A DNA stretch of 64,000 bases. Source: Eledone cirrhosa. Its lineage: Eukaryota. The first letter of the stretch is position 1; each line of letters begins with the position of its first letter. This document shows positions 7,901 to 10,900 of the stretch, one piece after another. The translations under genes were made by a program, and so were the position numbers. The notes below the pieces were generated by a model. That model saw nothing but the letters and a program-made list of their open reading frames with translations, did no database searches and was not told the DNA's origin. The stretch is from assembly GCA_964016885.1 (NCBI GenBank), contig OZ024756.1:36828001-36892000 (forward strand). The letters are read 5' to 3'.

Positions 7901-10900
7901 GCAGCTTTATCAAACATGTGTAATGGTTACGGCAATAACCACTTGCCACTACATGTGGACCACATCAAACCGCCCATAACCACTCCAACTATTGTCACCA
8001 AAGCAGATGTGAGTAACCAGTTCTTCTTATTATTAAAGGGTGGTGGATTGGCAGTATCGGTAGAGGGTCGGACACCATGCTTTGTGGCATAGGGTTATGG
8101 CCCTTTACGAACTGAGTTCAAATACCGTCCAGGTTAACTTTGCCTTTCATCCTTACGGGGGGTCGATAAAATAAAGTACCAGTAATGTACTGGGTAATTG
8201 CTGGCCTTGTGCCAAAAGTAGAAACAAATATATTATATTAGGGCGGTGGATTGGCAGTATTGGTAGAGCGTCGGACACCATGCTTTGTGGCATAGAGTTA
8301 TGGCCCTTTACGTTCTGAGTTCAAATCCCGCCGAAGTCAACTTTGCCTTTCATCCTGACAGGGGTTGATAAAATAATGTACCAGTAATGTACTGGGGTCG
8401 ATTTAATCAACTTTCCCTTTCTCCAAAATTGCTGGCCTTATTATTATTATTATAGGTTGGGAGGGCGGTGAAATAGCAGAATCAGTAGAGCATCAGACAA
8501 AATTCTTTGCAATATTTACTTGCGAATTTCTACATCCTGAATTCCAATCCTGCTGAGGTTGATGAAATTGTTGGCTTTTGTCTAAATTAAAAACAATTAT
8601 ATATCTACACACACACACACACACACACACACACACACACATATATATAGGAACAAGTAAGACCCCGACGGCTGAGCTCAAGCCGTTTCGACGGCTAATT
8701 CTGACAGAATTAGCCGTCGAAACGGCTTGAGCTCAGCCGTCGGGGTCTTACTTGTTCCTATTATCCACTCTACTACCCTAAGTATTGAGTACTTTGGTGC
8801 GTTATGGTCCACCTGGTTCCTTACCACATTTATATATATATATATATATATATATATATATATATATATATATATATATATATACACATAATGTAGGAGG
8901 TGAGTAATATTGTAGAACAATAAAACTATGCATATATCAGATAAGTAGCACTCAACAGTTGGTAGAACAGGAGTATATATAAAGAAATTAAAAGATGGTT
9001 AAAAAAGTTCCATATATTTTATTATGTGCATTTCGAAAACATCTTTTAATTTCTTCTTTATATATATATATATAGTGTATTGGTGTGTAATGTTTAGTTA
9101 CTGATGGTTCATCAACCACATACGTGTGTATGTATGTATGTATATATATATATATATATAAATATATATATATATATATATATAAATATATATATATGTA
9201 TATATATATATATAAATATATGCATCCCTCTTCTAGGATTGATAAAATAAAGTACCAGTCAAGTATTGGGGTTGATTTATTTATATATATATATATTTAT
9301 ATGCGTGTCTATTTCTACCTTGCTCTTTCTCTGTCATACTACCCCTCTCCTCATTCTGCCAGTCTCTCTATCACAGTTCCAATATTATAATATTCCAGGA
9401 CAATGACTATGAATTCCACACATTTGCCACAAGTTGTTTCACACAATTCAGAATTCTCTTCATACGAACATTCATCACAATTCTCAGAGATACGGTAAGT
9501 CAAATATTATTCTATTGTTTTCATGAAAAGATTTAACACTTTTGTTACCATATTTTTCAAGAATTTAGAATGATTTAGTAATCATCATTGTTTTAGGTCT
9601 GTTTTTCCATGCTTGTATGTGTTGGATAGGTCTTTCTTTTCCAACACAGCACCACTCTTCTTGTGGTCCTTCATCTTCTCCATTGTGAGCTTCAATGATT
9701 TAATATCAGCTCTAACAATCTCTGCCAGGTCTTCCTCTACTGTATTTCTTCTACTGGGATTCTATAATATTATATATATATATATAGAATATATATTTAT
9801 TTATATTATTAAGGCTAAATAGTGAGTCTTGTTACTCTGGAGTTTTGCCTGTTTATTACAGGGATATCGACAAGAACTAACATTCAGTAGCAGACACAGT
9901 ATAAGGGAAGATTCAGGGGTTTGGGGAATTAATATGGAATATATATATATATATATCATCATCATCATCATCATTTTTGTTTAACGTCCATCTTCCATGC
10001 TAGCATGATATATATATATATTTATTTATTATAAGAACAGATTAAAGTTTAAGCAAAGATTCGCTGCTTTCACCCTTAACTTATTATTACTATATATATA
10101 TATATATATATATATATATATATATATATATATATAACATCTTATACATATCGATAAAATATGGTTCCCTGGGGATATTTAAAATCTCAAGCAACTTATA
10201 CATAAGGAGTCTGACCAAAATCCCTGACTGCAGAAACAGTTTATGAATTGAAAAGTAAATAAAAAAGTAAATAAGTGAGACCACTTCAATAGATTGAGAT
10301 GGTCATCATTATTTGATCAAATTTTTTTACTAATATCCACCCACGCATAAATTATCAGCCATTTACATCTCTCTCTGTCTTCCAGACACTGACCAGACTA
10401 CGATTACTTGCCCATGTATCTGTTGGAGTTCTCATTGGATTACTCTACTTAGGAATCGGTAATGAAGCCAGCAAAGTCTTCAACAACACCGGATGTCTTT
10501 TCTTTTGTATGCTCTTTCTCATGTTTACAGCTCTCATGCCAACCATTTTAACATGTAAGTCATTGTTTAACATTTACATATTGATGTTGTTTGTATATAG
10601 GTTGTTGTTGTTATTATTGGGTATAGTGGACGCAGGTGTGATAGAATTGCAATAGGGATATGGTGAGAGCAAGTGTTAGTATGTTTATGGTTGTGTGTGT
10701 GTGTGGGGGGGGGGGGGGGGGGTTGTGTGTGTGTGTGTAAAAGGTTAACAGAAATAACAAAACAAACGGCACAGTACATGGAAGAAATATTAATTTAATG
10801 CTTGAAATAGCAGGAAGAGGATCTTAATGTTTCAGACACCAGTCCTTTATCAGAAGATAAATAGAAAGATAGAAAGTGAATAGTGAGTCTTGTTACTCTG

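What the first reader, a model, noticed from the sequence alone, without database searches (positions are those of the whole stretch)
8647..8761. Four-copy (TA)n-targeted element with a covarying hammerhead-like fold that lacks the CUGAnGA core
Seen: four elements (8647-8830, 27678-27848, 31991-32120, 39948-40096) sit in or beside (TA)n tracts and share a tail (ACCAGAGTACTCAATACTTGGGGTAGTAGAGTGGGTAA). Three also share an architecture (31991 is degraded): long stem I; stem II starting GACGGC and ending GCCGTC; GAAA; stem III ACGGC/GCCGT; GTC or GTT; stem I'. The outer arms differ between copies (GGAACAAGTAAGACCCC, GAAAAGATTCAGGACCCC, GGAAAAGGTATGACCTC) yet each pairs with its own partner, and the 8647 copy is a perfect 57-bp palindrome. 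Established: stemII-GAAA-stemIII-NUH-stemI is the 3' half of a hammerhead ribozyme, and Penelope-like elements and retrozymes carry hammerheads. Inference: a non-autonomous, microsatellite-targeting retroelement family whose RNA is a core-less hammerhead, perhaps a substrate cleaved in trans or a replication/recognition cruciform. I do not recognise it as a described family.
Basis: partly seen in the sequence, partly recalled or inferred. Interest (0 to 1): 0.75.

Follow-up and report, generated by a model that had tools for sequence, protein, structure and literature searches.

The report
Penelope stumps ending inside their ribozyme
These four small mirror-image repeats are short stumps of a known kind of jumping gene (a Penelope-like element) whose full-length copies carry a complete, variant self-cutting RNA motif, and tens of thousands of such stumps stop at one spot inside that motif, likely because the element's RNA starts there.

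Summary
The four elements and the perfect 57-bp-arm palindrome are real. They are short insertions of a Hydra-clade Penelope-like retroelement (PLE). The parent has a 3,531-bp unit and an intact 717-aa RT/GIY-YIG ORF. Its hammerhead is complete, with the known U3:A8 core UUGAnAA (4,437 exact hits), which a CUGAnGA search misses. Each insertion is two inverted, 5'-truncated copies, one ending at +58 and one at +138 (the tail), in (TA)n. The covarying outer arms and the 'stem II 5' strand' are the inverted DNA copy, not a selected RNA fold. The less ordinary point: at least 55,216 arms exist, only 18 of 100 listed reach the core, and most stop at a conserved T(T/C)AGT motif in loop II, often with an extra G (85 G to 15 A). 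This fits run-off copying of a capped RNA that starts inside the ribozyme; no RNA data tested it. One variant (1,490 arms) is nearly all short, suggesting SINE-like sources. The scan reached the same start-site reading earlier on other DNA of this genome.

The parts
8647..8703 (-). Copy a, inverted tail-less arm: parent positions +5 to about +60 (+1 = A of T(T/C)AGT in hammerhead loop II), ending at TTCC-TA in (TA)n
   Evidence: BLAST to parent L121, 96% over 57 nt; palindrome check
8705..8758 (+). Copy a, sense arm (+5 to +58): stem II 3' strand 8711-8718, GAAA 8719-8722, stem III 8722-8740, GUC site 8739-8741, stem I 3' strand 8742-8746
8759..8831 (+). Copy a, PLE tail (+59 to about +131), between the two fixed end points; holds a weak bulged hairpin at 8767-8790
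8831..8884 (.). (TA)n target tract right of copy a
27689..27789 (-). Copy b (older subfamily), tail-bearing arm, parent about +128 to +29
27790..27848 (+). Copy b, tail-less arm starting about +5 of the older subfamily (GGATCTAGCTGTTGAAAC), ending at TTTTCA-TA before (TA)n 27845-27908
31991..32046 (-). Copy c (older subfamily, decayed), inverted tail-less arm
32050..32120 (+). Copy c, very short tail-bearing arm (from about +51) with a decayed, internally deleted tail
39947..40032 (-). Copy d, tail-bearing arm (about +105 to -3) with a 23-nt internal deletion between two CGACGGC repeats, which creates the apparent stem I-stem II joint
40031..40096 (+). Copy d, tail-less arm (about -3 to +60) with GAAA, stem III and GUU site, ending in (TA)n

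Best explanation
The four elements are short, two-armed insertions of a Hydra-clade Penelope-like retrotransposon, likely made when both ends of a cut in a (TA)n tract were extended from two fixed start points on an RNA that likely begins, capped, inside loop II of the element's hammerhead. Shown: parent element, complete U3:A8 hammerhead, two fixed 3' ends (+58, +138), sharp 5' boundary near +1, excess G at -1. Inferred: the GIY-YIG domain cuts (TA)n; each DNA end primes cDNA at one of the two sites; RT runs off the RNA 5' end after 60 or 140 nt, often copying the cap; the two cDNA ends join head to head by microhomology or short filler. Priming at the 3' copy of the same sites on read-through or multimeric RNA would give the long two-armed copies with the full ribozyme. 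The missing core is a truncation, and the covarying arms are one sequence copied twice. Some short variants are likely made from non-coding transcripts fired from terminal pLTRs and mobilised in trans.
For: Parent: 225 nt upstream of a longer copy hits 403 candidates, the 40 scored all 100% identical, five in tandem with period 3,531; 717-aa ORF with LRWR, DKT, YRDD, CxCX5C, VIY..YIG, CxxC, CxH, matching the Hydra definition (PMC8557442 section 11); 2,049 homologues at E<=0.001 among 7,996 scored. Ribozyme: 4,437 hits to CCC-TTGAnAA-G...GCCGTCGAAAC, control 0; N7 takes all four bases; older subfamily has UUGAnAA and CUGAGGA; on 28 rows 92.4% of cells pair, U3:A8 in 25, C3:G8 in 2, stem II G-C to A-U in 10. 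Ends: 22 of 23 long two-armed insertions end at +58-61 and +138-144, tail arm longer in 11 and tail-less arm in 12; 40 of 46 parsed tail ends have an inverted arm within 240 nt, 37 of 40 bounded by TA. Boundary: 55,216 arms with the anchor (a lower bound), 27,022 reach +1, 10,685 reach -4, 4,437 the core; loss per base about 6%, 21% and 2%. T(T/C)AGT is conserved between subfamilies whose loop II otherwise diverged. Purine at -1 in 6,065 arms, 85 G to 15 A of 100 listed, parent has T or C; 17 of 25 inspected G cases sit behind filler rather than the partner arm, about 14 after a stricter look by eye; 11 of 16 arms ending exactly at +1 are preceded by G. Haplotype TTACTCC: 1,490 arms, 0 of 100 listed with a whole core, one reaching into it, against 18 of 100 overall (Fisher p = 3e-6). 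Literature: two internal RT start sites bounding the tail, both strands cut and extended (PMC11167929); start site inside the pLTR and a 3' pLTR able to drive transcription (PMC2377424; PMC8557442); untemplated 5' G read as cap copying for L1 (PMC9341517).
Against: The start site and cap are inferred from DNA ends only. None of the 46 long arms ends at +1 of an upstream pLTR: three run through it (L121/L122, L266, L269) and the next longest stop at +164, +314, +331, +365 and +473, so the long class needs longer-than-unit RNA. The boundary is a few bases wide (+2 was the commonest end, 22 of 126, with a second peak at +7). At least 6 of 25 inspected G cases come from the partner arm. No match to the recalled DPE consensus at +28 to +32 (read). 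Counts are exact-pattern counts, so mutation inflates the apparent loss, and the listings cover only the first sites of the first contigs. The 23 long insertions were picked by me as inverted pairs. Pfam gave 0 families for the ORF at E<=1 and Rfam found no hammerhead in the parent. The parent ribozyme folds no better than shuffles (z = -0.22). Five of 102 palindromes carry two different recurring arm variants, one by 3 bases (L190), which one RNA alone does not explain.
Confidence: 0.7

Rival explanations
1. Same parent and two-ended priming, but the boundary is a reverse-transcriptase stop on a long RNA: the folded ribozyme (loop II packed on the stem I internal loop) or a bound protein blocks RT near +1, and the stalled cDNAs are joined.
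For: The boundary lies just past the stem II 3' strand, inside a structured RNA; no long arm ends at +1 of an upstream pLTR (0 of 46).
Against: RT crosses this position many times in tandem arrays (five units at L121/L122). Core-bearing arms cluster as partners (13 of 18 listed lie in pairs or a triple), which a per-pass stop does not predict. A stop does not explain the G excess, the initiator-like motif kept between subfamilies or a variant that is almost only short.
Confidence: 0.17
2. One reading: the short palindrome is itself the mobile unit, a core-less hammerhead fold kept by selection and cleaved in trans or used as a cruciform signal.
For: Short forms outnumber long ones about 5 to 1; one haplotype is nearly all short; the 3' half with GUC is intact in many copies.
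Against: Junctions vary from copy to copy (spans 84-146 nt), and the recurring junctions appear with different arm variants and in both orientations, so they are made anew. Long copies have the same two-armed ends. The perfect arms would trap the half-ribozyme in a 57-bp hairpin. The apparent stem I-stem II joint is a deletion between short repeats in copy d.
Confidence: 0.05
3. The YAG at +1/+2 is a 3' splice site or leader-acceptor, and the short copies come from processed RNA.
For: YAG is conserved, with a U-rich or CTAAT stretch upstream; PLE pLTRs carry introns, one ending at a hammerhead helix in D. virilis (PMC4209133).
Against: The 39 flagged upstream stretches and the commonest 6-mers before +3 show partner arm, (TA)n or A/T filler, no shared exon or leader (130 short arms examined; the k-mer test itself was confounded by partner arms). 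Splicing would join upstream sequence, not end the copy.
Confidence: 0.05
4. A miniature inverted-repeat DNA transposon (MITE) with a TA target.
For: Inverted arms bounded by TA (37 of 40).
Against: The arms are the pLTR of an RT-encoding element; one-sided tail, variable centre and kilobase-long versions of the same arms.
Confidence: 0.01

Closest known systems
Hydra clade of C-terminal EN+ Penelope-like elements (Craig et al. 2021, PMC8557442), e.g. Hydra-1_Obim, Penelope-13_HM
   Same: Single RT + C-terminal GIY-YIG ORF, RWK-like and DKT motifs, CxCX5C linker, CxxC and CxH, (TA)n target, hammerhead in the pLTR, inverted 5'-truncated copy, one-sided tail.
   Different: Every Hydra hammerhead row in File S2 has a CTGA core with a short stem II loop; here the core is mostly UUGAnAA and loop II is about 35 nt. 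Unit 3.5 kb against <3 kb; tail 80 nt against 30-40. Hydra-1_Obim has another hammerhead sequence, so this is a different family.
U3-A8 hammerheads of Schistosoma mansoni Cercyon PLEs (Cervera and de la Pena 2014, PMC4209133) and other natural U3-A8 cores (Perreault et al. 2011, PMC3088659)
   Same: Same compensatory core change in a PLE pLTR; hammerheads close together on opposite strands; most copies from truncated PLEs.
   Different: Those are minimal, helix III-less motifs; this one has a 5-6 bp helix III. A fixed truncation point inside the motif is not reported in the parts read.
Poseidon_Ac in vitro mechanism (Frangieh et al. 2024, PMC11167929)
   Same: AT-rich DNA cut and extended on both strands; two internal RT start sites that bound the tail; hammerhead cleavage not needed for insertion.
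   Different: Another clade; start sites lie in the ORF there and 5' of the ATG here (+58, +138; ATG at +232). No in vivo class of run-off hairpins described.
Animal non-LTR retrozymes (bioRxiv 10.64898/2026.07.22.740005, abstract only)
   Same: Non-autonomous sequences derived from PLE pLTRs.
   Different: Retrozymes are tandem units with whole hammerheads; these are two-armed stumps without the core.

Membership tests
Hydra-clade PLE (parent element) | Single ORF with RT and C-terminal GIY-YIG endonuclease | tested here: met
   717-aa ORF, YRDD at 348, VIY..YIG at 591; top homologue carries PF01541 and many carry PF26215. Direct Pfam scan gave 0 families.
Hydra-clade PLE (parent element) | RWK motif, DKG changed to DKT, CxCX5C linker | tested here: met
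   LRWR at 36 (R for K), DKT at 117, CNCPDRSIC at 572 (definition)
Hydra-clade PLE (parent element) | CCHH absent; CxxC and CxH in the EN region | tested here: met
   Only one CxxC (670) and one CxH (698) in the protein; absence of CCHH judged by eye, not on an alignment
Hydra-clade PLE (parent element) | Insertion into (TA)n | tested here: met
   37 of 40 tail-less ends bounded by TA; tails run into (TA)n
Hydra-clade PLE (parent element) | Placement inside the clade on an RT tree | not tested
   No tree built; reference sequences were seen only as cut excerpts of the supplement
EN+ PLE insertion | pLTR in tandem units, inverted 5'-truncated copy, tail at one end | tested here: met
   L121/L122 array and 23 long insertions
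Type I hammerhead (parent) | Core C3U4G5A6N7G8A9 / G12A13A14 / NUH with a 3:8 Watson-Crick pair | tested here: met
   U3:A8 in 25, C3:G8 in 2, mismatch in 1 of 28 rows; GAAA invariant, GUC or GUU. The rows were chosen with a pattern that demands these letters.
Type I hammerhead (parent) | Three helices with compensatory changes | tested here: met
   92.4% of 699 cells paired, slid controls 31-53%, 5 pairs change on both sides; related rows, so few independent events; Rfam models do not hit
Type I hammerhead (parent) | Self-cleavage after C17 | not testable with these tools
   Needs an in vitro assay
Type I hammerhead (the four window copies) | 5' half: stem I 5' strand, YUGAnRA, stem II 5' strand | tested here: not met
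   All arms start between about -3 and +51, core lies at -43
MITE (DNA transposon) | Fixed terminal inverted repeats from a DDE transposon, symmetric ends | tested here: not met
   Arms derive from an RT element, one-sided tail, variable centre
Non-LTR retrozyme | Tandem monomers each with a complete hammerhead | tested here: not met
   Short copies are two-armed and core-less

The most novel reading that the evidence does not exclude
The element's promoter splits its own ribozyme: every pLTR-started RNA begins, capped, with a core-less substrate half, and only read-through RNA holds the catalytic half. Capped half-ribozyme RNAs fired outward from terminal pLTRs act as SINE-like templates that flooded the genome, and the 3' UTR half cleaves the 5' half in trans or across one mRNA, as a natural two-piece hammerhead that uncaps or circularises the RNA.
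Probability: 0.12. Interest if true: 0.72.

Novelty: new variant of a known kind. Interest (0 to 1): 0.4.

Why it matters
How PLEs, the sister group of telomerase RTs, make their inverted, one-tailed insertions and what their hammerheads do are stated open questions (PMC8557442, PMC11167929). Tens of thousands of run-off stumps give a genomic read-out of both RT start sites and of the RNA's probable 5' end at base resolution, and a young parent with an intact ORF makes each step testable. If the start site lies in loop II, promoter-started RNA cannot self-cleave and only read-through RNA can, a simple switch between message and multimeric template. The finding as first posed (a selected core-less hammerhead) is not real, and the element class, tail, inversion and U3-A8 core are all published.

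Tried and rejected
CUGAnGA upstream of stem II: 63 hits genome-wide; in the part of the 30 loci that was printed they were junction filler or neighbouring elements, not the parent core. Tail-only DNA search returned nothing because common words are skipped; not informative. An apparent tail-arm-specific GAGGTC allele in L001-L030 was query bias: 310 hits, found on both arm types in the 100 listed. Rfam: no hammerhead in the window, in L121 2050-2460 or in L198/L222/L204. Pfam: 0 families on the ORF. Expression: no RNA holder listed; read laying was not used. Spliced-exon k-mer test was confounded by partner arms. Simple fold-back from one primed arm: either arm can be the longer (11 and 12 of 23). 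Paper searches for a fixed truncation point or cap G in PLE stumps and for the core variant found no such description; subscription journals and Repbase were not searched, and only hits and part 2 of 59 of the PMC8557442 supplement were seen.

Full report
Observation. Window 8647-8761 is its own reverse complement except the central base 8704, with 57-bp arms; it folds at -113 kcal/mol, z -22.7. The copies at 27678, 31991 and 39948 share the tail and lie at (TA)n tracts. The three-helix layout fits literally only copy d; in a and b the first GACGGC is the mirror of the last GCCGTC. Rfam has no hammerhead hit in the window.

The family. The window lies in a 3.0-Gb genome; the TA-rich repeats and the likeness to an octopus Hydra element suggest a cephalopod, which is my inference. 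Copy d found 1,480 candidates, 40 scored. The 30 loci fetched show (TA)n, tail, inverted arm, variable centre, direct arm, (TA)n. A CUGAnGA pattern gave 63 hits; in the loci printed these were filler or neighbours, but two loci ran on upstream into a shared sequence with CCC-TTGAnAA-G. That pattern has 4,437 exact hits against 0 for the reversed control.

The parent. The upstream 225 nt found 403 candidates, the 40 scored all identical, five of them in tandem with period 3,531. Each unit holds a 717-aa ORF whose ATG lies 232 nt after the reference point +1, on the same strand as the hammerhead. It has LRWR, DKT, YRDD, CxCX5C, a GIY-YIG-type VIY..YIG, CxxC and CxH, the Hydra-clade signature with (TA)n targeting (PMC8557442 section 11). 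It has 2,049 homologues among 7,996 scored, most near 40% identity. Pfam gave no family directly. No tree was built.

The ribozyme. In 46 distinct complete motifs picked by a pattern, positions 3 and 8 are U:A in 42, C:G in 2 and C:A in 2, and N7 takes all four bases. An older subfamily, to which window copies b and c belong, has 269 pattern hits, with UUGAnAA commonest and some CUGAGGA. On 28 aligned rows 92.4% of cells pair and stem II shows a G-C to A-U change in 10 rows; the rows are related, so this is few events. U3-A8 is natural and active in vitro (PMC3088659, passages) and known from Schistosoma PLEs (PMC4209133, parts 1-2 of 4). The Hydra hammerheads tabulated by Craig et al. all have CTGA cores (supplement part 2). 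Rfam models miss this motif and its folding energy is unremarkable (z -0.22).

The covarying arms. The variable stretch of the outer arm follows the 5-bp stem I of the real ribozyme, where the 5' strand stays GGAATTACCCC across three 3' variants. In short insertions the two arms are identical over the outer 13 nt in 68 of 102, and most others differ by one base. The pairing is therefore one sequence copied twice. Five of 102 carry two recurring variants, L190 by three bases, which hints that two RNAs are sometimes used.

Ends. In 23 long insertions that I picked as inverted pairs, one arm ends at +58-61 and the other at +138-144 in 22; 5' ends are scattered and joined with little or no overlap or filler; the tail arm is longer in 11 and the tail-less arm in 12. 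This is the published inverted pLTR with one-sided tail (PMC3846280 passages; PMC8557442) and fits the in vitro result that a PLE protein extends both strands from two internal sites bounding the tail (PMC11167929, parts 1-2 of 4). A weak bulged hairpin follows each end point by 6-8 nt in this parent, a lead taken from earlier scan notes.

The boundary. At least 55,216 arms carry the stem II-GAAA anchor and 18 of the 100 listed reach the core; 27,022 reach +1, 10,685 reach -4, 4,437 the core, a loss per base of about 6, 21 and 2%. In 101 arms from L125-L194, 81 match the parent for at most 12 nt upstream of the anchor (this sample leaves out some long arms fetched earlier). The motif there, T(T/C)AGT, is kept between subfamilies whose loop II otherwise differs and resembles the initiator consensus as I recall it. 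Where a purine precedes +1 (6,065 arms) it is G in 85 of 100 listed, though the parent has T or C. Of 25 G cases inspected, 6 abut the partner arm, 2 have no partner and 17 follow filler, about 14 after a stricter look. An untemplated 5' G is read as cap copying for L1 (PMC9341517, passages), and Penelope starts transcription inside its pLTR, whose 3' copy can drive transcription (PMC2377424, passages and part 3 of 4). One variant with 1,490 arms has no whole core in 100 listed, so some sources yield almost only short copies.

Against. The start site is inferred from DNA ends only. No long arm of 46 ends at +1 of an upstream pLTR and three cross it. The boundary is several bases wide. An RT stop at the folded ribozyme remains the main rival (0.17); a splice site is unlikely because no shared upstream exon was seen (confounded test).

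Mechanism. Shown: parent, ribozyme sequence and covariation, two fixed 3' ends, 5' boundary, G excess. Inferred: a cut in (TA)n, priming of both ends at +58 and +138, run-off at a capped 5' end in loop II, head-to-head joining; long copies from read-through or multimeric RNA. Overall 0.7; descent from the Hydra PLE alone is close to certain.

Novelty. Element class, tail, inversion and U3-A8 core are published. A fixed, G-marked truncation point inside the ribozyme was not found in the paper searches. Earlier scan notes on other DNA of this genome reached the two-ended priming, the U3-A8 Hydra hammerhead and the start-site reading; I had formed that reading before looking, and those notes are not independent support. 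The retrozyme preprint was seen as abstract only. Verdict: new variant of a known kind, interest 0.4.

Noticed in passing
L121/L122 (G000:C1:437198000-437217800): Five tandem 3,531-bp units, 99.9-100% identical, with intact ORFs in the two units listed and a 287-nt inverted tail-bearing arm: a very young, probably active array.
   Followed up: partly
window 34450-34720: Long inverted repeat centred on (TA)n 34560-34603, each arm ending in (GAT)n; the same sequence lies downstream of the element in L048, so likely two copies of another retroelement inserted tail to tail.
   Followed up: no
window 8893-9065, minus strand: End of another (TA)n-bounded repeat with GAAA-TGCAC-ATAATAAAA; a relative upstream in L025 has CTGATGA, so likely a second hammerhead-bearing PLE family truncated before its core.
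   Followed up: partly
L135 1460-1593 and L136 1524-1657: Both arms of one insertion carry a C3-A8 mismatched core (CUGAGAA), so a likely inactive ribozyme was still copied.
   Followed up: no
L190: The two arms belong to different recurring variants (3 differences), suggesting two RNA templates for one insertion.
   Followed up: partly
L255, L256, L262, L270, L123: The longest single-unit arms stop at +331, +365, +164, +314 and +473, near the ORF start, rather than at +1; unexplained.
   Followed up: no
L121 2284-2320 and 2364-2400; window 8767-8790: A 4+4-bp hairpin with a 2-nt bulge follows each of the two fixed end points; weak on its own (z -1.5 and -2.0).
   Followed up: partly
L025/L026: Two identical short elements in direct tandem, 224 bp apart, separated by (TA)n.
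   Followed up: no
L032, L041, L053, L055, L034, L035: Single arms joined at the same boundary to inverted ends or GIY-YIG fragments of other PLE families, suggesting mixed-family templates or insertion into existing ends.
   Followed up: no
window 8312-8440: Interspersed repeat resembling a cephalopod SINE (recalled, not tested) just left of copy a.
   Followed up: no
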